Positions 8,872-45,848 of a stretch of DNA of 64,000 nucleotides are shown piece after piece. Made by a program: the position numbers and the translations under genes. The stretch is from an uncultured Gammaproteobacteria bacterium (GTDB lineage Bacteria > Patescibacteriota > Microgenomatia > CAYXHB01 > CAZYTL01), in NCBI GenBank assembly GCA_964650355.1, contig CAZYTL010000008.1:89-64088 (forward strand). Reading direction: 5' to 3'. The notes beneath the pieces were generated by a model, which did not search any database, was not told where the DNA came from, and saw nothing but the letters and a program-made list of their open reading frames with translations. Position 1 is the first letter of the stretch, and each line of letters starts with the position of its first letter.

Positions 8872-9930
8872 CTAAGATTCCCTTTCCTGCCCACCGTAAA
8901 ATACAAAATCTTTAGGTGAGAGTTTAGGCGTCACCCTGGTTTCCACTCCTTGAGATTGACCATTAAGCATCGCGAGTATCATATCCCGTGCTACCAGTCT
9001 GGGTAAGGTAGCGCCACCCATTGGGAGCTGAATCATGTTATAAAATGCTTCGTCATCGATGTTCTTTTTAATCCTAGCTCCATTGAGAAACAGCCACATT
9101 GAAGTCTCTGTATCATCAATGATAGCTCCACTAAGGATTTCACAAAATCTGATGTCGCCGGCTTTTGCTTTTTTAATACAATATTCCAGCATTGCAAATT
9201 TAGCTGCCCCAATGGAATCAACGTATTTATTCAAAACTCTTTCAAACAAAGGACCCACATCAGGAGATACACTTTGCAGACCTTCCGTTATCCTTCTCTG
9301 GTTTTCTTCTTTACTGAAGTGGCCTGGGTAACTATTAGTGGTGAGCACAAGTAGGGGTGACAAATCAGGATACTTTTGTCTTTCCTCCACTGCTGCATCT
9401 AAAATGTTTTTGGGGGTAACGAAGCCAATATTGCGAGCAACCTGTTCGCCCTCGCGCATCCCGCCTGCGGCACAAAAGGCGAGAATTCCTACTGGATATG
9501 TTAGTAGTTCCGGCTGAAATAGTCTCTTTATTTCATCTCTGGTCAGCGGTTCGCTAAAATCCGCTTGAACCGGAAATACAAAAGGTGGCAACTGATCTTT
9601 ATTCTCAAGGTTGCCTAAGGCTAGTGGATAGCGGCTATGATACTGAACAATTAGCGGAGTGTCTCCGTCGCCATATTCAATCAACGCTCTCATCGCTTCT
9701 CCCACAGCTATGCCTACCGGAAGTCCGCTCGCGCCGAAGAACGCTGTGCCATTGGCATTTTTCAGGGACAGGGCTAACATTTGCCGCTCCTGGACGGAAA
9801 GATCTAAACCAGGGATCAATCTCTGTTCCGGACCTCTGATCATAATTGATAAAAGTTTACCATAATTCCTCTGTCCTGAATGGTGGTTAATATCGAGTTG
9901 GTTTGGGTATATACTATTCTTTGTGGGCAA
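8872..9930 (-). CDS. conserved hypothetical protein
   Basis: 352-aa ORF with Gly-rich segments (FFGASGLPVGIAVGEAM, CAAGGMREGE). The fold was not recognised. The start is uncertain: TTG at 9930 or ATG at 9843. Confidence 0.4.
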   Translation of the reverse strand: MPTKNSIYPNQLDINHHSGQRNYGKLLSIMIRGPEQRLIPGLDLSVQERQMLALSLKNANGTAFFGASGLPVGIAVGEAMRALIEYGDGDTPLIVQYHSRYPLALGNLENKDQLPPFVFPVQADFSEPLTRDEIKRLFQPELLTYPVGILAFCAAGGMREGEQVARNIGFVTPKNILDAAVEERQKYPDLSPLLVLTTNSYPGHFSKEENQRRITEGLQSVSPDVGPLFERVLNKYVDSIGAAKFAMLEYCIKKAKAGDIRFCEILSGAIIDDTETSMWLFLNGARIKKNIDDEAFYNMIQLPMGGATLPRLVARDMILAMLNGQSQGVETRVTPKLSPKDFVFYGGQERES

Positions 9931-15706: not shown

Positions 15707-17056
15707 CTAGTGATGAATTTTAAGAAGATTTTTCCGGTACTTATTGGCAAAGCGGTGGGCTTCGTCGCGCAGGTGCTGGATCACCTGCAGGGACAGAGAG
15801 GAAACAGATAAGAGTAAGGTGGAATAAGGATGGGTTTTCTGACCGGTGTAGATGATGATTTCCTCCTGTTTTTTGGCCAATCCAATGAGAGGAATGTCCA
15901 GATGGTAAGACTTGAGCACTCCCAAGGCGGCACTAATTTGCGGTTTGCCGCCGTCCACCACGATTAAATCCGGGAGAGGCCAGGAGTCGATATTTCGGGG
16001 TTTCGTTTTGTCGTGGTGTTGGCGTCTAAACCTCCGTTGGAGCATTTCGGCCATCATGGCCACATCATTGGGATGGCCTTCTTTTTTGATTTTAAATCTG
16101 CGGTATTGGGATTTATCAGGTTCTCCCCCGCTGAACACCACCAGCGATCCCGTGGAAAACTGGCCGCTGAGGGTAGAAATGTCGTAAGCTTCGATTCTTT
16201 CCAGTTGATGAACAGCAGGAGAGATTTGGTTCTGGTTTAACACCAGGATTAATTCCTGAAGAGCCTGATGTCTGACTTCCAGCCGGAGATGAGGATTTTC
16301 AATATATTTGAAAGGGGACTGTTGAGGCTGGAGAAGTTGTTGCAAATAGGCGTATCCGTCGCGGTATTCGGCTGCTAATTCGTAATTTTGTGTCCGAGAA
16401 GCATGATTCATTTCCCTTTCAAAGCTCTGTAATACCTTGGGAGCCTCTCCGGACAACAAGCGAGTCAACCAGCGCATCTGTCTGCGATATTGCCGCTTAG
16501 ATTGCCTTTGTTGGGGCGTGTCAAGAGTAAGCACTGTTCGAGGACAAGGTTGGCACAAACCGATTGAAGCATACAAACAGGGTCGTCCCCGATTGCTTTT
16601 ACAGGAGCAATAAGGAAAGATGCGGCGAAGAAATTTGAGCACCTGGCGCACAGTATGAGCTGAAGGAAAGGGACCGAAAATATCTGCCGGACCAATGTCC
16701 TGAGTGCGTCTGACAATCCGCACTTTAGGAAAATCCTCTTTGGTAATGGCAATGTACAGAGGATGTTTGTCGTCTTTGGCAACGGTGTTGAATTTGGGAA
16801 GATATTTTTTGATTAAAGCCGCTTCCAATAAGAGAGCCTCAAATTCGCTGTTGACTTCGATGTGTTCAATCCGGGCAATTTGGGGCAGCAGCAGGGAAAC
16901 TTTGGGCCGGGAATCCTGACCGAGAAAGTAAGATTTTACCCGAGAGCGGAGATCCACGGCTTTGCCCACGTAGAGCACTTGATCCTGGTCATTTTTGAAC
17001 AGGTACACGCCGCAGCTTTTGGGCAATTTTGATACTTGTGAGCGTAATGATGACAC
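15707..17056 (-). CDS. uvrC: excinuclease ABC subunit C (short form)
   Basis: N-terminal GIY-YIG (GVYLFKN...LYVGKA...RV), a Cys cluster, a UVR motif, and the RNase-H-like IPLIGLAKK endonuclease region. It appears to lack the C-terminal (HhH)2. GTG start. Confidence 0.85.
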   Translation of the reverse strand: MSSLRSQVSKLPKSCGVYLFKNDQDQVLYVGKAVDLRSRVKSYFLGQDSRPKVSLLLPQIARIEHIEVNSEFEALLLEAALIKKYLPKFNTVAKDDKHPLYIAITKEDFPKVRIVRRTQDIGPADIFGPFPSAHTVRQVLKFLRRIFPYCSCKSNRGRPCLYASIGLCQPCPRTVLTLDTPQQRQSKRQYRRQMRWLTRLLSGEAPKVLQSFEREMNHASRTQNYELAAEYRDGYAYLQQLLQPQQSPFKYIENPHLRLEVRHQALQELILVLNQNQISPAVHQLERIEAYDISTLSGQFSTGSLVVFSGGEPDKSQYRRFKIKKEGHPNDVAMMAEMLQRRFRRQHHDKTKPRNIDSWPLPDLIVVDGGKPQISAALGVLKSYHLDIPLIGLAKKQEEIIIYTGQKTHPYSTLLLSVSSLSLQVIQHLRDEAHRFANKYRKNLLKIHH

Positions 17057-19340
17057 ATAAACCTCCTATCGCCAATGATACCACTAGTTGCCAAAGATAA
17101 ACTTTCAAAGGCAGGGGCAGAGTGAATTGCTGACCGGCCAGTTTAAGTTTGATGGCTTGACGGTTAAATGCCAATAGGGAAGGCCGGAAGCGGAACTGAT
17201 AATCATAACTGCCATAAGGAGGAATCAAAGGCAAGTATGAATCTGACAGGGACATGAGCGTCAGGGTGTTATCCAGAGAAAAATTAGCCTGGAGATTACT
17301 AGCAGAGGTAGGGCCTAAATTTTTAATGGTCACTCTACCCGACCACCAGGAAAACGGCCACCAGGGATAATCCGCTTTCAGCCGGAGATTTAATTCCGGA
17401 GGATCCTCGGGAAATTGCTGTCCCAGGGTCACGACCACGTCTTTTTGCGGATGAGAGGCGGGTTTGTAATAGCCGGCGGGCAAGGGCCCGGAACTGTCTA
17501 AACCATTGAGAGCCATGGTCAAGTGGTTGTAATCCCAGTGATGAAAGTAGTCACTGCCTCCGGTGGTGACCTCCCAGGTGGGATCGACCGGTTTCCAGAC
17601 CTGCAGGTGATCATCCCAATATTCCGGCCAGGCGTGCAGCACGTCAGCCACCAGGGACAGAGGTTGTAATTCAGGGCTGTCTGAATGGGCATAGCCAATG
17701 GCTTGCCGGGCAGGAATACCGGCCGCCCGGGACAAAGCAATAAACAGATCCGTAAATTCCATACAAATTGCCTCTTGCGGCTGATTAAGAGCCTGAAGAG
17801 CCCCCAAGCGATTGGTTTCATTGGTCAGACGCTGGTAATCGTATTGCAGATGGGTAGTCACATAACCGTAAATGGATTCAGGATTGGACAAAGAGATGGC
17901 CAATTCGCTGATCTTTGGCTGGTTCACCTCCCAATATTTCTGTGATGTCAGCCAAGGTTCGCGTTGCGGCAAGGCGGCGATGCGCCAGGGTTGGGCAAAT
18001 ACCATGGCTGATCCACTGACCTGAATTTCAGAGGTTTGTCCGGCCGTGAGCTGATAACTGGCTAACCAGTTTCCGTCCGGATCAACTGTCACTTGGTCCG
18101 GTAAAGGCGCGATTTTTGAAATGGCGATTCTTTGATAGCTGGTATCAGGAGGCAAGGTGATGGTTTGTTGAGATGAATGTTGCGATTCACCGTTCAAGGT
18201 GTAGGAGAGTTGAAAATCATAAAGTTGAAAATCGCCAAACACCGCCCTCAAGCCCCCTGTCTGCAGTTCGTCCGGGGAAAAAGTGAATTTCTGCCATTCA
18301 GGCAGATTTTCCCTGGAATCGGGTGGGGGAATCAGGTATGCCAACCTGCCCAGACTGTTTTTGACCAATAGTTGGATATGGGTTTGTCTGGCCGAGGGAT
18401 TAGGGGCCATTTTGGGGAGTTTGAGTTCTCTGATTTGGCCCTGATCAACGACAGCCTGGTGAAGATCATAAAAGACCTGAAACCGGGTGGTTTGTCCTTT
18501 ACCCAAAGCCAAAGGGGGATGGTCCGGATCCTGCTGGGTGGGAAAATATACGATCAATTTGATAATAGGTTGATTTAAGGACTGGGATTCAGTGGACTGC
18601 CATTTTAAGGGATGGTTCAACTCATCCTGAGCAAAGATGTTCGTGATTTTTTCTCCGGTCAGAAGAAGAGTATAGCTGTGGGGAAAATTCTCAGTGGTCA
18701 GATTTTCGATGCTGATATCTTCTTTAACTCCGACCACCAGATCTTCGTTTAAGGTATAAGTGACATCCCGATCCACGGCAAAGTCGGCAGCACGGACAAG
18801 TGGCGGTTGCCACAGAAAAATACAGAAACATAGGGAAAAAATAGCTACTAGCCATTTATGGCCGATTTCGTCAAACCTTCTGGTAAATTTGATCGCATGT
18901 TTTTGCATATAGGCAGCAGAAATATTATTAATAAAATGAATCCCTATCCCTAACCAAATTGTTTGCGTCTGATAAGCCACAACTGCCATCAAGGGTCCAA
19001 AGAAAAATGTGGAGTACAAAATTTGTTTAATTAATTCTATTCTGTCTAATAAGAAAATATTTTTAAGATGCCAGAGACCAAAAAATAAAGATGAGATGAT
19101 TAAGGAAAAGGTGAAAGAAAAATTGTGGATAAAGAAGGCAAATATAAGGCCTCGAAAAATAATTTCCTCGTAAACAGGAGCAAATAAATACATGACGTAA
19201 ATACTGATGTTGTGTTTTTGAAAGTATTTTGTTTTCGATAATAACCTTAGGTGCGCATTTAAGGCAAACAGGAATATAATTATGCCAATTTGAATACTGG
19301 GAGTTAAGAAGCCAATGCGTATTAATTGAAAGTAGCTCAT
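16989..19340 (-). CDS. CPBP (CAAX-protease-like) intramembrane protease fused to a transglutaminase-like domain
   Basis: The N-terminal EEIIFRG motif and FGLWH are CPBP signatures. The C-terminal CMEFTDLFIALSRAAGIPAR is a transglutaminase-core Cys motif. Its 3' end overlaps the uvrC start by ~68 nt. Confidence 0.65.
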   Translation of the reverse strand: MSYFQLIRIGFLTPSIQIGIIIFLFALNAHLRLLSKTKYFQKHNISIYVMYLFAPVYEEIIFRGLIFAFFIHNFSFTFSLIISSLFFGLWHLKNIFLLDRIELIKQILYSTFFFGPLMAVVAYQTQTIWLGIGIHFINNISAAYMQKHAIKFTRRFDEIGHKWLVAIFSLCFCIFLWQPPLVRAADFAVDRDVTYTLNEDLVVGVKEDISIENLTTENFPHSYTLLLTGEKITNIFAQDELNHPLKWQSTESQSLNQPIIKLIVYFPTQQDPDHPPLALGKGQTTRFQVFYDLHQAVVDQGQIRELKLPKMAPNPSARQTHIQLLVKNSLGRLAYLIPPPDSRENLPEWQKFTFSPDELQTGGLRAVFGDFQLYDFQLSYTLNGESQHSSQQTITLPPDTSYQRIAISKIAPLPDQVTVDPDGNWLASYQLTAGQTSEIQVSGSAMVFAQPWRIAALPQREPWLTSQKYWEVNQPKISELAISLSNPESIYGYVTTHLQYDYQRLTNETNRLGALQALNQPQEAICMEFTDLFIALSRAAGIPARQAIGYAHSDSPELQPLSLVADVLHAWPEYWDDHLQVWKPVDPTWEVTTGGSDYFHHWDYNHLTMALNGLDSSGPLPAGYYKPASHPQKDVVVTLGQQFPEDPPELNLRLKADYPWWPFSWWSGRVTIKNLGPTSASNLQANFSLDNTLTLMSLSDSYLPLIPPYGSYDYQFRFRPSLLAFNRQAIKLKLAGQQFTLPLPLKVYLWQLVVSLAIGGLCVIITLTSIKIAQKLRRVPVQK

Positions 19341-26557: not shown

Positions 26558-27484
26558 TCATGGTTGCCAGATAGTGTCTCGATAAACCCAATCAATTAAT
26601 TCACGAGTATCACCAAAACGATCTTCGCTGGCCAACATAGCAATGAGCACGGAATGTCCATCCCGATCGATGAGGGTAACTAAGGCTTCTTTGGCCTGTT
26701 CGGTCCACCCAGTTTTTACTCCTTTCACGCCGGGTACGGTGGTTAGTAGTTGATTGAGATTGGTAATCTCGTGGCTGGTTTGTTGGTCGACACTGGTAAT
26801 AGTTTTTTCTTTTGTGGCTACGATTTGGGCAAATATTGGCTGCCCTAAGGCGACCTTAGCCAGTTTTAACAAATCAGCAGTAGATGATAAATGCAGGGGG
26901 TCGTGCAAACCCGTGGGGTTAACAAAGTGAGTTTGCTCTAAGCCCAATTCAATGGCTTTCCGATTCATCGCATCGATAAAAGCCGGCACACCTCCTGGAT
27001 AATGGCTGGCCAACGCCCAAGCCGCGTCATTTCCGGATTGCATCAGCATACCATAAAGCAGATTTTCCACTGTCATGGTTTCGCCTGGGTAAAGTTCAAT
27101 TTTGGCTCCGAGCACCTGGTAGTTAGGCACGGTGACCACATCTGTTAACTGGTAGTTGTCCAGAGCGATGAGGGCGGTCATGATTTTAGTAGTGGAAGCA
27201 GGAGGCAAAACGTGGTGGGAGTCTTTTTGGGCCAGAACAGTGTCAGTGTTCAGATCCTGAATGATATAAGATTGAGCACTAATTTGAGGAGGGGTGGTGG
27301 TCAGCTGGGGTGTGGGTAGGGGGGTCGGGGTCAGTGTGAGGGTAGGAGTGGGCGAGAGCGTTACTTCTAAGGTTGCGGGTTGGTAATTGGCAGTGGTAGG
27401 CGGCTGTTGAAATTGGATGATGAAGGTTAAAAGCAGCACTAAACCGATTACGCTGATGATGAAGGATCTCGTCGACATAGACAC
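26558..27484 (-). CDS. D-alanyl-D-alanine carboxypeptidase (serine-type, PBP5/S11 family)
   Basis: Signal anchor, ASTTK (SxxK), SGN (MQSGNDAA) and KTGWT (KTG) motifs. Confidence 0.8.
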   Translation of the reverse strand: MSMSTRSFIISVIGLVLLLTFIIQFQQPPTTANYQPATLEVTLSPTPTLTLTPTPLPTPQLTTTPPQISAQSYIIQDLNTDTVLAQKDSHHVLPPASTTKIMTALIALDNYQLTDVVTVPNYQVLGAKIELYPGETMTVENLLYGMLMQSGNDAAWALASHYPGGVPAFIDAMNRKAIELGLEQTHFVNPTGLHDPLHLSSTADLLKLAKVALGQPIFAQIVATKEKTITSVDQQTSHEITNLNQLLTTVPGVKGVKTGWTEQAKEALVTLIDRDGHSVLIAMLASEDRFGDTRELIDWVYRDTIWQP

Positions 27485-27612
27485 CAGTAACTAGTGATTA
27501 ATAACCGTCCTTAATCCATCATAAAGTTGTTAATCTTAAAAATCAAAAGGTATCTTGATAGCGGCCCTTAATCGGGAGGTAAATTCTCAAAAGTTTATGA
27601 TATACTAGGGAC

Positions 27613-27957
27613 ATGCAGGTGCAGCTAAGTACTGAGAATGTTAGCCTTACTGAAGCGCAAAAACACGCGGTTGATAAACGAATAAAAAAATTGGAGAGAT
27701 TGTGTCGACTATTTAAATCCGAATTGGTGTCCACCCGTCTGAAATTGACAATAAAACCACCGATTAATGCTTATGTTGCCCAATTGACTTTGGCTGTACC
27801 CGGTTCTCAGATGGCGAGTAAATTTCGGGATAAACGCTTTTCAGTAGCCATAGGCAAAGCGTTTGACAAAGTAGCTGCTCAGTTGAGGAAGTACCGCGCC
27901 AGATTAAGAGATACCCGAGACTTTGCCAAGGTAGCCAAAGATAAAGGCAAAGCCTAG
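27613..27957 (+). CDS. hpf: ribosome hibernation promoting factor (HPF/RaiA family)
   Basis: 114 aa with the S30EA pattern: ...KHAVDKRIKKLERL ... FDKVAAQLRKYRARL. AGGGA SD. Confidence 0.8.
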   Translation: MQVQLSTENVSLTEAQKHAVDKRIKKLERLCRLFKSELVSTRLKLTIKPPINAYVAQLTLAVPGSQMASKFRDKRFSVAIGKAFDKVAAQLRKYRARLRDTRDFAKVAKDKGKA

Positions 27958-28046
27958 GTAAGTTTTCAGTTGTTAGTTATCAGTTTTCAGTTCTCTTTAA
28001 TAAAAAACCTACAGCTGTTTATAATAATTTTTGATTTTTTGAGCCA

Positions 28047-28385
28047 ATGGCTCATCAGCCTCTGGCTGAGATTTTTAACTCATTTATCGTGCCTGTCCGC
28101 CATACCATCCATCCCACTTTCAGACAAACCTTTCTTCATGGAATCATCGCCGGGATCGGCTGGGCATTCGGAGCCACCATTGTGTTCGCAATATTAATCG
28201 CTATTTTTGGTTATGTAATCTCTGTCTTAGGACATGTTCCCGGGTTGAACTATTTGATTGCCCCCATAAATAGAATCGTTGAAGATACCCAAGACCCCAG
28301 GGTCGAAGTGTTGGAAAAGGATCAAGGGGTAGTCACCACCTTCCCGACAGGAGATCAAAATCAGATAGACAACCCCAGACGATAA
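28047..28385 (+). CDS. small membrane protein (hypothetical)
   Basis: Two predicted TM segments. Confidence 0.35.
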   Translation: MAHQPLAEIFNSFIVPVRHTIHPTFRQTFLHGIIAGIGWAFGATIVFAILIAIFGYVISVLGHVPGLNYLIAPINRIVEDTQDPRVEVLEKDQGVVTTFPTGDQNQIDNPRR

Positions 28386-28427
28386 GATTAAAGCATGAGG
28401 AAACGAATTAATGCTTCGGAAGGATGA

Positions 28428-29546
28428 TTGAAGATAGCGATATTCGATTATGGATTTAGGGATATAATTACGATAATGAAGCTACCAATTTACTTTCCGG
28501 ATGCAACTCGAGGGGTAGTCCGGGGTTTGGATAGTGAAGATCTCCACGAGGTTGGTATAGAAGGCTTGGTTGTAAATACCTATCACCTGTTATCGCACCC
28601 GGGTATCTCGGTCTTAAAGGCAGCTGAGGGGCTAAAAAATCTAATGAATTGGCATGGCTGGGTGATTTCTGATTCAGGGGGATTCCAAATGCTGTCCCTG
28701 ATTTACCAAAATCAATTGAACGGAAAAGTAAATAAGGATGGAATTGTATTTTATCGTGATACTAAGGGCAAAAAACGCCGAATCGAATTTACTCCGGAGA
28801 AATCTATCCAGACTCAGTTTGCGATTGGCAGTGATGTAATGTTCTGTCTGGACGACTGTCCACCGGTGAAGGCTGGACCAAAAGAGTACGAGGCCAGCGT
28901 GACCAGAACCGTAAGTTGGGCGGAGCGTTGTAAGGATGAATATTTAAGCCAAGTTAAATTAAAAAGGTTGAATGAACAGTCCCGGCCGAAATTATTTGCA
29001 GTAATCCAGGGAGGCAATGATAAAAGACTACGGCAAAGTTGCGCTGAATCTTTGTTGAAAATCGGTTTTGATGGTTATGGGTTTGGGGGTTGGCCACTAG
29101 ATCGTGACGGAAATTATGATTTCGAGATATTGCGTTACACGGCCAGATTAACTCCAGATGAGTTACCGAGATTTGGATTGGGGATCGGGAATCCCCAGGC
29201 AATCATTGATTGTTTCAAGCTGGGATATACGATGTTTGATTGCGTATTGCCGACCAGGGACGCCCGCCACCAACGATTGTATGTTTTTAACCACGATCCT
29301 AACCAAGGTGATTTGTTAGCAGGTAATGGTCATGTGAAGTATCTGCATATCATGCAGGAAAAATATGTCCGGGATACAAGACCGATCAGTCAATGGTGTG
29401 ATTGTCATACCTGTAAGCGTTATAGCCGAGCCTACTTGCGGCATTTGTTTGAGATCGAAGATTCTTTGGCAGGAAGGCTGGCCACGCTTCATAATTTAAG
29501 AACTTACACGACGTTAATAGAAAAGCTGAGAAAATATGTCAAATAA
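28428..29546 (+). CDS. tgt: queuine tRNA-ribosyltransferase
   Basis: LVVNTYHL, SDSGGFQ, DCVLPTR and a CxCxxC...H zinc site (CDCHTC). The start is uncertain: TTG 28428 or ATG 28476. Confidence 0.9.
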   Translation: MKIAIFDYGFRDIITIMKLPIYFPDATRGVVRGLDSEDLHEVGIEGLVVNTYHLLSHPGISVLKAAEGLKNLMNWHGWVISDSGGFQMLSLIYQNQLNGKVNKDGIVFYRDTKGKKRRIEFTPEKSIQTQFAIGSDVMFCLDDCPPVKAGPKEYEASVTRTVSWAERCKDEYLSQVKLKRLNEQSRPKLFAVIQGGNDKRLRQSCAESLLKIGFDGYGFGGWPLDRDGNYDFEILRYTARLTPDELPRFGLGIGNPQAIIDCFKLGYTMFDCVLPTRDARHQRLYVFNHDPNQGDLLAGNGHVKYLHIMQEKYVRDTRPISQWCDCHTCKRYSRAYLRHLFEIEDSLAGRLATLHNLRTYTTLIEKLRKYVK

Positions 29547-30333
29547 CCAGGACATAGACGGCTTGACGGATAAGGTTTTGCAATCCAAAAAGTATAAGTC
29601 CCTTTATAAACCTACGGTGAAAAGGATTGTAGAAGATGTGGCTTCACATTATCCCCCAAACAGGGTTGAAAAGGTAGTAAAAAGGAGACTGCACCAGATT
29701 TGGGGGGCCTATTTTAGGCGTCCCAATTTTGGAAAATTACTAAACAGAATAGAAGAAGATTTGCACGAGGGCACGGACATTAAAGTTGTCTTAAAGAGTC
29801 TATTAAAGTTGCAAACTTCCACGAATGAAAGAATCCCGATTTTAAAGAATTTTTATTCCAGAATTTTTTCTATTGCAGGACGGCCTCAAACAATTATCGA
29901 ACCTGCCTGCGGGTTGAATGCTCTGACTTATTTCTGGATGGGAACTGATATTGAGTACGTTGGTTTTGATGTTGACCAGGAAGAGATTGAATTTATCAAT
30001 TCTGTTTTCAGGTTAGCGGGAGTGCAAAACCAAGCCCGAGTAGAACTGGGTGACATCCTGGCTGGCGACTTTAAAAGTAAATCAGACTTGGTATTTTTGC
30101 TCAAGGTTATGCCAATTCTGGAGCATCAGCAAAAGGGATGCACTTTGGAGATATTAAGGAAACTGAAATGTAAACAGGTAGTAGTTTCGTACCCCACCAG
30201 AAGCATATCAGGGAAGGATAAAGGAATGGTCGATTTTTATCGAAAACAATTTACAAACCTGGTTAGGGGCGAGCCATGGAAGATAGAAAAGCTGGTTTTT
30301 GATACAGAATTGGTTTTTGTGATCAGAAAATAA
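29536..30333 (+). CDS. 16S rRNA (guanine1405-N7)-methyltransferase, ArmA/Rmt (FmrO) family
   Basis: Block-wise match to ArmA/RmtB as I recall them: SKKYKSL, LHQIWGAYF, LQTSTNERIPILKNFY (the HxSTNER block), EPACGLNALTYFW (motif I), DLVFLLKVMPILEHQQ, VVSYPTRSISGKDKGM, ELVFVIRK. Confidence 0.75.
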   Translation: MSNNQDIDGLTDKVLQSKKYKSLYKPTVKRIVEDVASHYPPNRVEKVVKRRLHQIWGAYFRRPNFGKLLNRIEEDLHEGTDIKVVLKSLLKLQTSTNERIPILKNFYSRIFSIAGRPQTIIEPACGLNALTYFWMGTDIEYVGFDVDQEEIEFINSVFRLAGVQNQARVELGDILAGDFKSKSDLVFLLKVMPILEHQQKGCTLEILRKLKCKQVVVSYPTRSISGKDKGMVDFYRKQFTNLVRGEPWKIEKLVFDTELVFVIRK

Positions 30334-30629
30334 AGTTCTAAAATGAAAACAGATATAAGATTAATTTGCTTTGATTTGAATAAAACCTTGATTGAGGAAA
30401 ACACCTGGCTGGAATTAAACCTGGCCATGGGAATGACCAACGAGCGGTTGACTTGGGGAACGAATCGGGTTAAGATACCATCAAATTAAATTTGCTGCGC
30501 AACATTAGAGAGATAGACTCACCAACTATCGAGCAGCAACGCTGATCCCCGAACGGATCGAATCAAGCGGTCCGATTTCACTTCGGACAAGCAAGATGGA
30601 ACCCTCCTGAGTAACGACAAAGGAGTCTT

Positions 30630-30657
30630 GCACCCATTGAAAAACGGGTGCTTTTTT
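30630..30657 (+). terminator. intrinsic-terminator-like hairpin (gcaccc-N10-gggtgc + TTTTTT), probable thrS leader attenuator
   Basis: 6-bp GC-rich stem at 30630-30635 / 30646-30651 followed by tttttt at 30652-30657. It lies 19 nt before the thrS ATG at 30676 and inside the longest-ORF extension. Confidence 0.45.
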
Positions 30658-30675
30658 ATTTGGTATGATGAATAT

Positions 30676-32439
30676 ATGGATAATAAAAACTTAGATAATT
30701 TACGGCATTCAGCCTCTCACCTGTTGGCAGCAGCGGTATTGGAATTGTGGCCGGATGCCAAGCCTACATTGGGACCCCCGATTGAGGACGGGTTTTATTA
30801 TGATTTTGATTTCGGAGAGGCTAAAATTTCTTCTGATGATTTGCCCAAAATTGAGGGAAAGATGCACGAGCTGGTGAACTCATGGAAAGGCTTTGAGCGC
30901 GTAGAAGTTTCTAAGACTGAAGCCAAGAAACAATTTAGCCAAAATGAATATAAGCAAGAATTGATTAATGACTTTTCAGAGAAAGGAGAGAAACTAACTC
31001 TATACAAATCGGGCGATTTTACTGATCTCTGCCGGGGCGGGCACATAGAAAATCCTGCGAAAGAGTTGAAACACTTCAAATTGTTATCAGTGGCCGGAGC
31101 TTACTGGCGGGGTGATGAAAAGAACAAGATGCTGACTCGGATTTACGGGACGATATTCCCAACTAAGAAAGAATTGGACGAGCACTTGGCCCGACTGGAA
31201 GAAGCCAAGCAAAGAGATCATCGAAAATTGGGAAAAGAGCTGGACTTGTTTACCTTTTCAGATCTGGTAGGATCTGGATTGCCTCTTTATACCCCCAAGG
31301 GAGCTCTGATTAGAAGATTGTTAAATGAGTATGTCGAACAAGTGCAATCTAAACAGGATTATCAACAGGTCTGGACACCTCAAATTGCTAAAGCAGAGCT
31401 ATTCAAAACTTCCGGTCATTATTCTAAATATAAAGACGATATGTTTAAGGTCATTTCCAATTATTCTGAAGAAGAATTGTATTTGAAACCCATGAATTGT
31501 CCGCAGCACACACAAATTTATGCCAGCCGGATGCGAAGCTATCGGGATTTACCAATCAGAATGACCGATTTTGCCATGCTTTATCGTGATGAGAAGCCAG
31601 GAGAACTAAGCGGTTTGGCCAGGGTCAGATCATTTTCTCAAGATGACTGTCATATTTTTTGTAGAGAAGACCAGGTTGATGAAGAAATTGATAAGGCATT
31701 AACCATGATCAAGGAAATCATGGGCACCTTTGGTTTCAAATATCGTTATCGACTCTCAACCAGGGATCAGGAACATCCGGAAAAATATTTAGGAGATCCG
31801 AAAATTTGGGACAAGGTTGAAAAATGGGCGGAAGTGATCATGAAAAGAAATAAAATTGATTATTATGACGGACCGGGAGAAGCGGCTTTTTATGCCCCGA
31901 AAATGGATTTAATGGCCACGGATGCTCTAAAAAGAGAATGGCAATTATCCACAGTACAAATCGATTACGTGATGCCGGAAAGGTTTGGACTTAAGTATAT
32001 TGATTCCACCGGATCAGATAAACATCCGATCATGATCCACAGGGCAATCGTGGGTTCACCGGAGCGTTTTATTATGATTCTTTTGGAACACTTTGCCGGA
32101 GCGTTTCCCACCTGGCTGTCCCCTATTCAGGCGAAAGTCTTACCCATCACAGATCAACAATTGGATTATGCGCAAAGGGTGGCGCAATTGTTGCGGGATA
32201 ATCGTGCAAGGGTGGAATTAGACGACCGATCGGAAACTCTGTCAGCGAAAATTCGTGACGCGCAATTGGAAAAGATACCTTATATGGTGATTGTCGGCCA
32301 GCGGGAGGAAAAAGCCAACCAGGTGGCGGTAAGAACCAGAAACGAGCAGGATTTAGGAGCTATGGAGATAGAAAAACTGACAAAACAGCTAACCGAAGAA
32401 ATTGCGACTAAATCGCTGAAATTGATGACTGCTCCTTAA
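30676..32439 (+). CDS. thrS: threonyl-tRNA synthetase (short form lacking the N-terminal TGS domain)
   Basis: LRHSASHLLAAAV (editing-domain His pair), HRDHRKLGKELDLF, class II motifs. Confidence 0.9.
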   Translation: MDNKNLDNLRHSASHLLAAAVLELWPDAKPTLGPPIEDGFYYDFDFGEAKISSDDLPKIEGKMHELVNSWKGFERVEVSKTEAKKQFSQNEYKQELINDFSEKGEKLTLYKSGDFTDLCRGGHIENPAKELKHFKLLSVAGAYWRGDEKNKMLTRIYGTIFPTKKELDEHLARLEEAKQRDHRKLGKELDLFTFSDLVGSGLPLYTPKGALIRRLLNEYVEQVQSKQDYQQVWTPQIAKAELFKTSGHYSKYKDDMFKVISNYSEEELYLKPMNCPQHTQIYASRMRSYRDLPIRMTDFAMLYRDEKPGELSGLARVRSFSQDDCHIFCREDQVDEEIDKALTMIKEIMGTFGFKYRYRLSTRDQEHPEKYLGDPKIWDKVEKWAEVIMKRNKIDYYDGPGEAAFYAPKMDLMATDALKREWQLSTVQIDYVMPERFGLKYIDSTGSDKHPIMIHRAIVGSPERFIMILLEHFAGAFPTWLSPIQAKVLPITDQQLDYAQRVAQLLRDNRARVELDDRSETLSAKIRDAQLEKIPYMVIVGQREEKANQVAVRTRNEQDLGAMEIEKLTKQLTEEIATKSLKLMTAP

Positions 32440-42041: not shown

Positions 42042-42114
42042 GTGAGCCGCCTGGGACTCGAACCCAGAACCGTCCGGTTAAGAGCCGGATGCTCTGCCAA
42101 TTGAGCTAGCGGCC
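42042..42114 (-). tRNA. tRNA-Lys (anticodon CTT)
   Basis: Reverse complement folds with acceptor stem GGGCCGC/GCGGCTC (one G·U pair), anticodon arm TCCGG-CTCTTAA-CCGGA, T-loop TTCGAGT, discriminator A. CCA is not encoded. Confidence 0.9.
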
Positions 42115-42149
42115 CCCTTTTATAAACATTTAAGAGAACAAGCTGTTAT

Positions 42150-42225
42150 CTGGTGCGCCTGGAGGGACTCGAACCCCCAACCTACTGTTCCGAAGACAGC
42201 CGCTCTATCCGTTGAGCTACAGGCG
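42150..42225 (-). tRNA. tRNA-Arg (anticodon TCG)
   Basis: Acceptor stem GCGCCTG/CAGGCGC, anticodon arm GCTGT-CTTCGGA-ACAGT, T-loop TTCGAGT, encoded CCA. Confidence 0.85.
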
Positions 42226-42404
42226 CAAGCTAAACAGTAGCCAAAACGTGGTGTTATCCCTTACTTTACAGGCCAATCATATTATAGCATTCTACCTCCC
42301 AAGTATCAGCTTTAGTTGTGAGCAATCAAAAAGCGTCGGTTTTGTTTCTTTGAGTTCAGTGGAGAGAAATGTTAGAGATCGACCGATATGTAATGAGAGA
42401 TTTT

Positions 42405-44137: not shown

Positions 44138-44224
44138 CGGCGGGGGAGGGATTCGAACCCTCGTGCCTCTTGCGAAGCGCACGGTTTTCAAGACCGGCCC
44201 GTTAAGCCGCTCCGGCACCCCGCC
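44138..44224 (-). tRNA. tRNA-Ser (anticodon TGA), class II with a long variable arm
   Basis: Acceptor stem GGCGGGG/CCCCGCC, anticodon loop CTTGAAA, T-arm GAGGG-TTCGAAT-CCCTC, discriminator G. Confidence 0.9.
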
Positions 44225-45757: not shown

Positions 45758-45848
45758 TGGCGGAGGAGGCGGGATTCGAACCCGCGCGGGACTGTGACAT
45801 CCCTTCGGTTTAGCAAACCGACGCAATAGGCCTCTATGCGACTCCTCC
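45758..45848 (-). tRNA. tRNA-Ser (anticodon GCT), class II
   Basis: Acceptor stem GGAGGAG/CTCCTCC, anticodon arm TCGGT-TTGCTAA-ACCGA, long variable arm, T-arm GCGGG-TTCGAAT-CCCGC, encoded CCA. Confidence 0.9.

What the first reader, a model, noticed from the sequence alone, without database searches (positions are those of the whole stretch)
29536..30333. ArmA/Rmt-family 16S rRNA m7G1405 methyltransferase homologue in a housekeeping context (between tgt and thrS)
The 265-aa protein matches, block by block, the acquired pan-aminoglycoside-resistance methyltransferases ArmA and RmtB as I recall them: SKKYxxL, LHQIWGxY, the (H/L)xSTNER(I/V) block, a CG(L/F)N(A/P)L motif I, VVFLLK(V/M)(M/L)P(I/V)L, S(Y/F)P(T/I)(R/K)S(I/L)SGK(D/E)KGM, and ELV(F/Y). 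An intrinsic chromosomal FmrO-family gene in an environmental small-genome bacterium bears on the reservoir and origin of these resistance genes. It would also predict intrinsic 4,6-disubstituted-deoxystreptamine aminoglycoside resistance. It overlaps the tgt stop by 11 nt, which suggests co-transcription.
Basis: partly seen in the sequence, partly recalled or inferred. Interest (0 to 1): 0.65.

Follow-up and report, generated by a model that had tools for sequence, protein, structure and literature searches.

The report
Chromosomal Rmt-type 16S rRNA methyltransferase coupled to tgt
An uncultivated small-genome (Microgenomates-type) bacterium carries on its chromosome an intact relative of the ArmA/Rmt ribosome methylases that make pathogens resistant to aminoglycosides, and in this bacterial group the gene is persistently tied to the tRNA-modification gene tgt rather than to mobile DNA.

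Summary
ORF 29536..30333 (+, 265 aa) overlaps the tgt stop by 11 nt. It matches Pfam FmrO end to end (E=3e-46). It scores 229 bits on NCBI's generic Rmt model, just under that model's cut-off of 250.

The AlphaFold model (pLDDT 93) matches only solved m7G1405 methyltransferases at TM 0.8-0.88. All four SAM-binding residues are retained, as are nearly all residues shown by mutagenesis to be essential in RmtC. The best reading is a SAM-dependent 16S rRNA G1405-N7 methyltransferase acting on 30S subunits. It is probably co-expressed with Tgt and should make the ribosome insensitive to 4,6-deoxystreptamine aminoglycosides.

It is 32-35% identical to RmtC, ArmA and RmtB, about as far as those are from each other. 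It is therefore not their direct progenitor.

The new point is context. thrS is an incidental neighbour, but tgt-rmt linkage recurs across a large, mostly Patescibacteria clade. One relative sits among rsmF, rsmE, rsmI and a queuosine-precursor transporter. Others sit beside APH-type kinases.

Whether the gene is kept for drug defence or as a native decoding-centre modification is open. The gene itself is a new member of a known kind. The interest is moderate.

The parts
29536..30333 (+). rmt-like gene: FmrO-family, predicted 16S rRNA (guanine1405-N7)-methyltransferase, 265 aa
   Evidence: Pfam FmrO E=3.3e-46, full length. NF000466 scores 228.9 bits against a cut-off of 250. PDB sequence hits to RmtC, Sgm, RmtB, RmtF and ArmA. 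AF2 model pLDDT 93, and the Foldseek top 16 hits are all m7G1405 methyltransferases. Key residues retained.
28476..29546 (+). tgt (tRNA-guanine34 transglycosylase). Its stop overlaps the rmt start by 11 nt. It is the conserved partner gene of this rmt clade.
   Evidence: Pfam TGT E=4e-91 and TIGR00430 307.3 bits. NCBI's own protein is 356 aa, so the start is at 28476 rather than the longest-ORF start at 28428. tgt lies within 2 kb of rmt in 8 of 21 GTDB loci, in 5 of 6 further rmt contigs, and in 3 of 4 blindly chosen Tgt homologues; the fourth carries an rmt remnant.
29536..29546 (+). 11-nt overlap of the tgt stop with the rmt start (likely translational coupling)
   Evidence: Read directly from the sequence. 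The same 11-nt overlap is seen in L028, L032, L035 and the L026 remnant, with 8-nt and 17-nt overlaps in L004 and L007.
27613..27957 (+). Ribosome hibernation factor (HPF / S30AE family), same strand, two genes upstream. It recurs near tgt-rmt in relatives.
   Evidence: Pfam Ribosomal_S30AE E=2e-12. Also present near rmt in L004, L032 and L037.
28047..28385 (+). Small membrane protein (weak DUF5665 match) between hpf and tgt. Membership of the unit is uncertain.
   Evidence: Pfam DUF5665 E=5e-4, below the curated cut-off. Not found next to rmt in relatives.
30676..32439 (+). thrS (threonyl-tRNA synthetase). It is an incidental downstream neighbour, not a conserved partner.
   Evidence: Pfam tRNA-synt_2b, HGTP_anticodon and tRNA_SAD. 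Absent next to rmt in all related loci.

Best explanation
The gene encodes a working member of the FmrO/Kgm/Arm/Rmt family. This is a two-domain enzyme: a helical N-terminal domain (N1 and N2) docks on the h24/h27/h44/h45 surface of the assembled 30S subunit, and a Rossmann-fold C-terminal domain flips G1405 out of helix 44 and transfers a methyl group from SAM to its N7.

It is a resident chromosomal gene of a Microgenomates-type (CPR/Patescibacteria) bacterium. It is most likely transcribed, and translationally coupled, with tgt. The organism's ribosomes would therefore carry m7G1405 constitutively and be insensitive to 4,6-disubstituted deoxystreptamine aminoglycosides (kanamycin, gentamicin, tobramycin, amikacin).

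Shown here: family membership by profile, fold, retention of the cofactor and substrate-recognition residues, chromosomal context, and conserved tgt linkage. Inferred: the target nucleotide, actual activity, co-transcription and the resistance phenotype.

I leave open which selective pressure keeps the gene: antibiotic defence, or native tuning of the decoding centre. The two are not exclusive and share the same chemistry.
For: (1) Profile and sequence. FmrO is matched full length at E=3e-46. The best NCBIfam hit is the generic Rmt m7G1405 equivalog, at 228.9 bits. The only PDB sequence hits are RmtC, Sgm, RmtB, RmtF and ArmA.

(2) Fold. The AF2 model has pLDDT 93.0 and pTM 0.90. The Foldseek top 16 PDB hits are all m7G1405 methyltransferases, including RmtC bound to the 30S subunit (8ghu), at TM 0.78-0.88. 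The next hits drop to E about 1e-8.

(3) Cofactor residues. RmtC R111, D160, D188 and Q212 (10.1101/712810) correspond to R99, D145, D173 and Q198 in the window protein. The first three are invariant in 64 relatives.

(4) Residues essential in RmtC by MIC and binding assays (PMC10288597). K20, Y21, R50, H54, Y60, R68, K72, K204, K236, R241 and M245 correspond to K19, Y20, K49, H53, Y59, K67, R71, K190, R222, K227 and M231. Y20, H53, K190 and M231 are invariant across the clade.

(5) Distance. The protein is 32-35% identical to RmtC, ArmA and RmtB, which are 30-32% identical to each other. It therefore lies within the divergence range of proven enzymes.

(6) Context. The neighbours are housekeeping genes. 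GC is 0.40 and GC3 0.43, within the range of the window's other genes. No mobile-element genes are adjacent.

(7) Linkage. tgt-rmt linkage is conserved from 66% down to 32% identity. Tgt and Rmt distances co-vary (Mantel r=0.73, p about 2e-4). A predicted Tgt-FmrO single polypeptide exists (P0290).

(8) A 16S target is supported by L033, where tgt and two rmt paralogues sit with an RsmF-like gene (C1407), rsmE (U1498) and rsmI (C1402).
Against: - There is no biochemical or phenotypic test.
- The score on NCBI's Rmt equivalog model is below its curated cut-off (228.9 against 250).
- Several secondary RmtC contact residues differ: R39 to H, K43 to N, K67 to G, K71 to N, R211 to H and N248 to F. 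ArmA and RmtB also vary at some of these positions (47, 67, 68, 71, 72 and 211), and N248A had no effect in RmtC.
- A 2026 preprint reports that a CPR 'grm-like' methyltransferase expressed in E. coli BL21 did not raise aminoglycoside MICs. The sequence and its expression level are not given, so this weighs little.
- Promoter and terminator scans around the genes are at chance level, so the operon structure rests only on the overlap.
- The organism's own 16S rRNA is not in the window.
Confidence: 0.8

Rival explanations
1. Defence reading. The gene is kept mainly as an intrinsic aminoglycoside-resistance determinant. It would protect an epibiotic or soil and groundwater bacterium from aminoglycosides made by neighbouring or host actinomycetes. 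The tgt linkage would then be a historical accident of where the gene landed.
For: - The closest relative with usable context (P0006, 64% identity) has an APH-family kinase overlapping the rmt start instead of tgt (PF01636, E=6e-17; weak APH(3') hit).
- L036 has an APH(4)-Ia-like kinase (130 bits) 1.5 kb from tgt-rmt.
- L035 has a GNAT acetyltransferase directly downstream.
- The gene is rare. Only 21 of 185,579 GTDB species representatives matched the search pattern, which detects about 68% of close relatives. That fits an accessory trait.
- Every characterised member of the family is a resistance or self-resistance enzyme (PMC9311965, PMC13602947).
Against: - PF01636 and GNAT are broad families, and all of these hits are far below the curated cut-offs.
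- The window itself has no drug-modifying enzyme next to rmt.
- Fermentative CPR cells are argued to take up aminoglycosides poorly (the preprint's own argument).
- Accidental linkage does not explain why tgt stays linked across the clade while every other neighbour changes.
Confidence: 0.4
2. Housekeeping reading. In these lineages m7G1405 is a native decoding-centre modification. It is installed by an old tgt-coupled RNA-modification module that tunes decoding together with queuosine-34 tRNA. Aminoglycoside insensitivity would be a by-product.
For: - tgt-rmt linkage spans the whole clade and several named classes (Saccharibacteria, Dojkabacteria, Microgenomates-type and unnamed), with variable spacing and even reversed order (L016).
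- Tgt and Rmt distances co-vary.
- In L033, rmt sits among an RsmF-like gene, rsmE, rsmI and a queuosine-precursor transporter.
- In L002, rmt lies beside the same transporter family.
- HPF recurs nearby.
- In Staskawiczbacteria the gene sits in a different but conserved housekeeping block, gatC-gatA-x-divIC-rmt-ligT-murC.
Against: - The patchy, rare distribution argues against an essential role.
- L026 shows the gene decaying to an 81-aa remnant.
- No fitness role of m7G1405 is known.
- In E. coli, m7G1405 is reported (from my own knowledge of the literature, not checked here) to interfere with RsmF methylation of C1407 and to carry a cost.
Confidence: 0.35
3. Divergent-specificity reading. 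The protein keeps the fold but methylates a different nucleotide or RNA, for example another G in 16S rRNA or a tRNA substrate shared with Tgt.
For: - The score is below the NCBI equivalog cut-off.
- Tight coupling, and a possible fusion, with a tRNA enzyme.
- The tandem paralogues in L033 imply that at least one copy may have a second target.
Against: - The residues that position G1405 (Y59, K190, R222), the h44-wedging Met (M231), His53, and the h45-contacting K19, Y20 and K49 are all kept and mostly invariant.
- The full N1/N2 30S-docking domain is modelled with high confidence and superposes on RmtC, Sgm and RmtB.
Confidence: 0.07
4. Recent horizontal acquisition. The gene is a recently imported resistance cassette that happens to sit among housekeeping genes.
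For: - The gene's distribution among species is patchy.
- The window's Rmt and Tgt have their nearest labelled relatives in other Patescibacteria classes, not among labelled Microgenomates.
Against: - GC and GC3 match the surrounding genes.
- No integrase, transposase or repeat flanks the gene.
- The overlap with tgt is shared with distant relatives.
- No relative exceeds 66% identity in 5.8 billion proteins, so any transfer was ancient.
Confidence: 0.1

Closest known systems
RmtC (acquired 16S rRNA m7G1405 methyltransferase of Proteus and Enterobacterales; PDB 6PQB, 6CN0, 8GHU)
   Same: It is the best solved-structure match (E about 1e-44; 35% identity over the full length). It has the same N1/N2 plus Rossmann architecture. 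The SAM-binding residues are the same, as are 11 of the residues shown to be essential.
   Different: RmtC is carried on plasmids, ISEcp1 or IncC elements in pathogens, whereas the window gene is chromosomal and coupled to tgt. RmtC has an insertion of about 14 residues in N2 that the window protein lacks. R211 is His and N248 is Phe in the window protein.
ArmA (plasmid-borne m7G1405 methyltransferase; PDB 3FZG)
   Same: ArmA has low GC (0.305), like environmental low-GC lineages. In distance quartets ArmA groups with the CPR-labelled set rather than with Sgm, RmtB or RmtF in 83-100% of bootstraps.
   Different: The best relative of ArmA gathered here is only 39-40% identical, so this clade is not ArmA's immediate source. 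ArmA is mobile (Tn1548-type contexts, from my own knowledge).
Sgm / GrmA / KgmB / FmrO (self-resistance m7G1405 methyltransferases of aminoglycoside-producing actinomycetes; PDB 3LCU, 3LCV)
   Same: Sgm is the best structural superposition (TM 0.86-0.88, rmsd 2.2-2.3 A) and the sequence match is E=1e-37. These enzymes are also chromosomal and intrinsic.
   Different: The producers' genes lie in or near aminoglycoside biosynthetic clusters in high-GC genomes. The window has no biosynthetic genes and lies on the other side of the family split from Sgm, RmtB and RmtF.
Housekeeping h44 decoding-centre methyltransferases RsmF, RsmE, RsmH and RsmI
   Same: They act on assembled 30S subunits at neighbouring nucleotides (C1402, C1407, U1498). 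In L033 the rmt paralogues are clustered with an RsmF-like gene, rsmE and rsmI.
   Different: Their folds and families are unrelated, and they are near-universal, whereas rmt is rare.

Membership tests
Pfam FmrO (PF07091) / Kgm-Arm-Rmt family of 16S rRNA m7G1405 methyltransferases | Significant full-length match to the family profile, above the curated gathering score | tested here: met
   158.2 bits against a cut-off of 27, E=3.3e-46, covering profile positions 2-255 of 255.
Pfam FmrO (PF07091) / Kgm-Arm-Rmt family of 16S rRNA m7G1405 methyltransferases | Two-domain architecture: a helical N-terminal 30S-docking domain (N1 plus N2) followed by a class I Rossmann methyltransferase domain | tested here: met
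   The AF2 model (pLDDT 93) has six N-terminal helices followed by an alternating beta/alpha core. Full-length superposition on Sgm, RmtC, RmtB and RmtF gives TM 0.78-0.88.
Pfam FmrO (PF07091) / Kgm-Arm-Rmt family of 16S rRNA m7G1405 methyltransferases | SAM-binding residues (RmtC R111, D160, D188, Q212) | tested here: met
   R99, D145, D173 and Q198 in the window protein. The first three are invariant and Q is present in 61 of 64 relatives (residue roles from 10.1101/712810).
Pfam FmrO (PF07091) / Kgm-Arm-Rmt family of 16S rRNA m7G1405 methyltransferases | Residues essential for 30S docking, h44 distortion and G1405 positioning (RmtC K20, Y21, R50, H54, Y60, K204, K236, R241, M245) | tested here: met
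   K19, Y20, K49, H53, Y59, K190, R222, K227 and M231 in the window protein (residue roles from PMC10288597). R211 is His here; ArmA has Gln at that position.
Pfam FmrO (PF07091) / Kgm-Arm-Rmt family of 16S rRNA m7G1405 methyltransferases | Catalytic activity: N7 methylation of G1405 in assembled 30S subunits | not testable with these tools
   Needs an in-vitro methylation assay or site mapping. The GCCCGUCA target context is present in the 16S rRNA of a related contig (L026), but the window has no rRNA gene.
Pfam FmrO (PF07091) / Kgm-Arm-Rmt family of 16S rRNA m7G1405 methyltransferases | Confers high-level resistance to 4,6-DOS aminoglycosides | not testable with these tools
   Needs MIC assays. 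The only related experiment in the literature is a CPR 'grm-like' gene in E. coli, which was negative and is poorly documented.
NCBIfam NF000466 'Rmt family 16S rRNA (guanine(1405)-N(7))-methyltransferase' (equivalog used to name acquired-type Rmt proteins) | Score at or above the curated equivalog cut-off (250 bits) | tested here: not met
   228.9 bits, E=6e-68, aligned over positions 2-253 of 254. This is just under the cut-off, so it is a close outgroup of the curated set. The allele-level models RmtB to RmtH score 76-158 bits against cut-offs of 500-550.
Acquired (mobile) 16S-RMTases ArmA and RmtA-H | Carried on plasmids, transposons, ISCR or integrative elements in pathogens | tested here: not met
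   The window gene sits among housekeeping genes with matching GC and no mobile-element genes. All 1,596 plasmid matches are below 60% identity; the listed hits range from 27% to 37%.
Producer self-resistance methyltransferases (Sgm, GrmA, KgmB, FmrO) | Linked to an aminoglycoside biosynthetic gene cluster in an actinomycete | tested here: not met
   No biosynthetic genes lie within about 14 kb upstream or 10 kb downstream. The named relatives of ThrRS are Microgenomates-type CPR.
Kam/NpmA family (m1A1408 methyltransferases) | Profile or fold match to the NpmA/KamB type enzymes | tested here: not met
   No such family appears among the Pfam, NCBIfam or PDB sequence hits. The top 16 Foldseek matches are all G1405 enzymes, and none of the 50 listed is an A1408 enzyme.

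The most novel reading that the evidence does not exclude
In a set of Patescibacteria lineages, m7G1405 is a native, constitutively installed decoding-centre modification. It is written by an ancient module in which an FmrO-family methyltransferase is genetically coupled to the queuosine-salvage enzyme Tgt, and is occasionally fused to it or embedded with an RsmF-like gene, rsmE, rsmI and the preQ transporter. Under this reading the low-GC acquired enzymes (ArmA, and perhaps RmtC) descend from this uncultivated-bacteria pool rather than from actinomycete producers. That would overturn the textbook view that m7G1405 exists only as producer self-protection or as acquired resistance.
Probability: 0.3. 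Interest if true: 0.7.

Novelty: new member of a known kind. Interest (0 to 1): 0.45.

Why it matters
m7G1405 methyltransferases abolish the activity of almost all clinically used aminoglycosides, and the sources of armA and rmtC are unknown. Reviews describe the modification as intrinsic only to aminoglycoside-producing actinomycetes, or as plasmid-acquired (PMC9311965, PMC13602947).

This window is a clean, full-length example showing that a much larger, mostly uncultivated pool exists on chromosomes of small-genome bacteria: 1,014 clusters at 50% identity with E<=1e-10. The enzymes in this pool are catalytically intact by every sequence and structure criterion, and their genes are stably wired into translation-related gene neighbourhoods.

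This gives three directly testable questions:
- Do CPR ribosomes natively carry m7G1405?
- Is the gene's purpose drug defence or decoding?
- Does the tgt coupling reflect a functional link between tRNA Q34 and h44 modification?

There is also a practical use. Predicted insensitivity to gentamicin and kanamycin could be exploited to enrich such organisms in co-culture.

The gene is not itself a near-term clinical source, because it is at most about 40% identical to any mobile allele.

Tried and rejected
- Promoter and terminator scan of 27400..30800: counts equal the shuffled expectation, so nothing can be said about transcription units.
- Rfam scan of the window: only four tRNAs, with no rRNA, leader or riboswitch near the locus, so the organism's own G1405 context could not be read.
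- An apparent FmrO-HPF fusion in L004 (a 402-aa ORF) was rejected. The ORF runs through 100 N of scaffold gap.
- The idea that thrS is part of the unit was rejected. thrS lies next to rmt in no related locus.
- A direct-progenitor relationship to ArmA, RmtC or RmtB was rejected. The maximum full-length identity is 36-40% among 68 close hits, 150 cluster representatives and 21 genomes.
- The 'Gammaproteobacteria' labels of three MAGs carrying tgt-rmt (L013, L014, L017) were examined. The flanking Rho is only 55% identical to E. coli Rho and many neighbours lack any Pfam hit, so I treat the label as doubtful and draw no cross-phylum transfer conclusion from it.
- The NJ tree is distance-based and unsupported at depth. 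I use only the bootstrap quartet summary, and only as a rough indication.
- A literature search found no description of tgt-FmrO linkage. The CPR resistome surveys mention 16S methyltransferases only generically.
- The 48-aa ORF in the rmt-thrS spacer has no Pfam hit.
Full report
**1. Observation**

The window has an ATG-initiated ORF at 29536..30333 (+) of 265 aa. The preceding ORF is Tgt: Pfam TGT E=4e-91, and TIGR00430 307.3 bits against a cut-off of 306.75. NCBI's own call for Tgt is 356 aa, so it starts at 28476. The tgt stop at 29544-29546 lies inside the first codons of the 265-aa ORF, giving an 11-nt overlap as reported. ThrRS follows after a 294-nt spacer. The only slip is that the residue two positions before STNER is Gln (LQTSTNERI).

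**2. What the protein is**

Profile and sequence evidence:
- Pfam FmrO is matched end to end (158 bits, E=3.3e-46).
- The best NCBIfam model is the generic Rmt m7G1405 equivalog NF000466, at 228.9 bits. This is just below its curated cut-off of 250. The allele-level RmtB to RmtH models score 76-158 bits against cut-offs of 500-550.
- Against all PDB sequences, the only hits are m7G1405 enzymes: RmtC 1e-44, Sgm 1e-37, RmtB 1e-27, RmtF 5e-26 and ArmA 3e-25.

Structural evidence:
- An AlphaFold2 model built on 64 homologues is confident (pLDDT 93.0, pTM 0.90).
- Its 16 best Foldseek matches in the PDB are exclusively Sgm, RmtC (including the 30S-bound 8GHU), RmtF, RmtB and ArmA. All but the truncated ArmA chain align over the full length at TM 0.78-0.88. 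The score then falls to E about 1e-8 for small-molecule O-methyltransferases.

Residue evidence, mapped from authentic RmtC, ArmA and RmtB sequences taken from annotated plasmids:
- SAH-binding residues of RmtC (10.1101/712810) are R111, D160, D188 and Q212. In the window protein they are R99, D145, D173 and Q198. The first three are invariant in all 64 relatives.
- Residues whose substitution abolishes RmtC-mediated resistance (PMC10288597) are K20, Y21, R50, H54, Y60, R68, K72, K204, K236, R241 and M245. They correspond to K19, Y20, K49, H53, Y59, K67, R71, K190, R222, K227 and M231. Y20, H53, K190 and M231 are invariant in the clade.
- The differences are R39 to H, K43 to N, K67 to G, K71 to N, R211 to H and N248 to F. 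ArmA or RmtB also vary at some of these positions, such as 67, 71 and 211, and N248A had no effect in RmtC.

The protein is 35%, 32% and 32% identical to RmtC, ArmA and RmtB, which are themselves only 30-32% identical to one another. By every test available in silico this is a catalytically competent member of the family. Activity and target site remain inferred.

**3. Whose gene it is**

- The window carries UvrA, UvrC, UvrD, a Mur ligase, GltX, a D-Ala-D-Ala carboxypeptidase-like protein, HPF, Tgt, ThrRS and LytR, plus many proteins with no family match.
- The named relatives of its ThrRS (72-73% identity) are Candidatus Woesebacteria, the Microgenomates group, Candidatus Pacebacteria and an ACD aquifer bacterium.
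- The named relatives of its Tgt are a Patescibacteria group bacterium and a WWE3 bacterium.
- The gene's GC (0.396) and GC3 (0.425) fall within the spread of 25 other ORFs in the window (GC3 0.47 +/- 0.06).
- There are no mobile-element genes nearby.

It is therefore a resident chromosomal gene of a Microgenomates-type CPR bacterium.

**4. The family around it**

- The word-indexed search found 68 relatives at 32-66% identity, all from metagenomes or MAGs. Some are already labelled '16S rRNA (guanine(1405)-N(7))-methyltransferase' by JGI or UniRef (for example in Candidatus Collierbacteria).
- The exhaustive HMMER scan of 1.84 billion cluster representatives found 1,462 clusters at E<=1e-3, 1,014 at E<=1e-10 and 237 at E<=1e-30.
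- Among GTDB species representatives, one peptide pattern recovered 21 loci. They are labelled Paceibacteria, Saccharibacteria, Staskawiczbacteria and Dojkabacteria/WS6, plus three MAGs labelled Gammaproteobacteria.
- That pattern detects about 68% of close relatives. Roughly 30 of 185,579 species representatives therefore carry a close relative, so the gene is rare and patchy.
- I doubt the Gammaproteobacteria label. The flanking Rho is only 55% identical to E. coli Rho and many neighbours have no Pfam match.

**5. The conserved partner is tgt, not thrS**

None of the window's other neighbours recurs beside rmt elsewhere, but tgt does:
- It lies within 2 kb of rmt in 8 of the 21 GTDB loci.
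- It is linked in 5 of 6 further rmt contigs examined: P0019, P0068, P0004, P0022 and P0044.
- Starting blind from the window's Tgt, 3 of 4 sampled top Tgt homologues have FmrO within 2 kb downstream.
- The fourth (L026) has an 81-aa N-terminal FmrO remnant that overlaps the tgt stop by the same 11 nt, followed directly by a 16S rRNA gene.

The arrangement varies. There are overlaps of 8, 11 and 17 nt, short gaps, one to three inserted genes, and a reversed order in L016. The linkage is therefore retained through rearrangement. Tgt and Rmt pairwise distances co-vary (Mantel r=0.73, p about 2e-4 over 11 pairs). One cluster representative (P0290, 628 aa) is predicted as a single Tgt-FmrO polypeptide. 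I could not check whether this is a true fusion or a frameshift error.

Other contexts also concern translation:
- L033 carries tgt, two rmt paralogues, an RsmF-like m5C1407 enzyme, RsmE (U1498), a queuosine-precursor transporter and RsmI (C1402).
- L002 has rmt beside the same transporter family.
- HPF lies near tgt-rmt in the window, L004, L032 and L037.
- Staskawiczbacteria share gatC-gatA-x-divIC-rmt-ligT-murC.

Hints point the other way too:
- The closest relative with context (P0006, 64% identity) has an APH-family kinase overlapping the rmt start instead of tgt.
- L036 has an APH(4)-Ia-like kinase 1.5 kb away.
- L035 has a GNAT directly downstream.

All of these hits are far below the curated cut-offs, so they are leads only.

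**6. Mechanism**

Most likely (confidence about 0.8), the protein docks on mature 30S subunits through N1/N2, flips G1405 out of h44 and methylates its N7 with SAM, exactly as shown for RmtC (PMC10288597). Expression is probably coupled to tgt through the overlapping stop and start. The expected consequence is insensitivity to 4,6-DOS aminoglycosides.

What selection maintains the gene is unresolved. I rate a defence role at about 0.4 and a native decoding-centre role at about 0.35. The two are not exclusive. A changed target rates about 0.07 and a recent import about 0.1. These are separate judgements and are not meant to sum to 1.

A 2026 preprint reports no MIC shift for a CPR 'grm-like' gene in E. 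coli. It also argues that fermentative CPR cells may take up aminoglycosides poorly. The sequence and its expression are undocumented, so I give the result little weight.

**7. Relation to the acquired genes**

No relative collected here exceeds 36% identity to RmtC, 40% to ArmA or 38% to RmtB. This clade is therefore not their immediate source. At depth, distance quartets place ArmA with the CPR-labelled set rather than with Sgm, RmtB or RmtF in 83-100% of bootstraps, and RmtC in 54-84%. The GC split is in line with this: armA 0.305 and rmtC 0.411, against rmtB 0.566 and rmtF 0.674. This is a rough indication that needs a proper likelihood phylogeny.

**8. Novelty and verdict**

The gene is a new member of a known family. 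Homologues in CPR genomes are already auto-annotated, and CPR resistome surveys have noted 16S methyltransferases in general terms. Reviews still describe m7G1405 as confined to actinomycete producers or plasmids.

I found no description in the searchable literature of the persistent coupling to tgt, or of the embedding among decoding-centre modification genes. That coupling makes the native presence of m7G1405 in CPR ribosomes a concrete, testable question. Interest is moderate, at 0.45.

Noticed in passing
L033:4920-11297 (JGI 3300044799, 278-kb contig): A cluster of genes that modify the decoding site. In order: tgt, two tandem FmrO paralogues (33% identical to each other), an RsmF-like m5C1407 methyltransferase, RsmE (m3U1498), a queuosine-precursor transporter (TIGR00697) and RsmI (Cm1402), followed by lipA. 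The second FmrO copy has Leu in place of the wedging Met and may have a different target.
   Followed up: partly
P0290 (628 aa; cluster representative): Predicted single polypeptide with a Tgt domain (residues 9-356) joined by a short Gly/Ser linker to a full FmrO domain (376-621). It may be a genuine Tgt-Rmt fusion or a frameshift at the usual overlapping junction.
   Followed up: partly
L026:6100-9067: After tgt, with the same 11-nt overlap, only the first 81 codons of an rmt gene remain. They are followed directly by a 16S rRNA gene of about 2.3 kb with insertions, whose best Rfam match is the archaeal SSU model. The GCCCGTCA (1401-1408) target context is intact at 8941-8948.
   Followed up: partly
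L034:837-2593; L036:7299-8228; L035:3418-3930: In relatives, rmt is preceded by an overlapping APH-family kinase (L034), lies 1.5 kb from an APH(4)-Ia-like kinase (L036, 130 bits), or is followed by a GNAT acetyltransferase (L035). These may be aminoglycoside-defence neighbourhoods, but all hits are far below the curated cut-offs.
   Followed up: partly
window 30343-30489 (+): A 48-aa ORF (MKTDIRLICFDLNKTLIEENTWLELNLAMGMT...) lies in the rmt-thrS spacer. It resembles the N-terminal DxD/T motif region of a HAD hydrolase and looks like a gene remnant. It has no Pfam hit.
   Followed up: partly
L004:5989-7197: An apparent 402-aa Rmt-HPF fusion ORF is an artefact of a 100-N scaffold gap. HPF nevertheless lies immediately downstream of tgt-rmt there.
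   Followed up: yes
L013, L014, L017, L029 (records titled 'uncultured Gammaproteobacteria bacterium'): These MAGs share the synteny rho-lit-VTT-LysM/M23-tgt-rmt-(nudix)-obg with L027 and a 549-kb JGI contig. Their Rho is only 55% identical to E. coli Rho and many neighbours have no Pfam match, so the class label looks doubtful.
   Followed up: partly
window 16989-19340 (-): A large 782-aa protein combines an Rce1-like CAAX protease domain with a transglutaminase core domain. It lies in a block with uvrA and uvrC.
   Followed up: no
window 42043-42226, 44138-44224, 45761-45848 (-): Four tRNA genes are the only Rfam matches in the window. Two are long (87-88 nt, type II-like). There is no rRNA gene in the 64 kb.
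   Followed up: no
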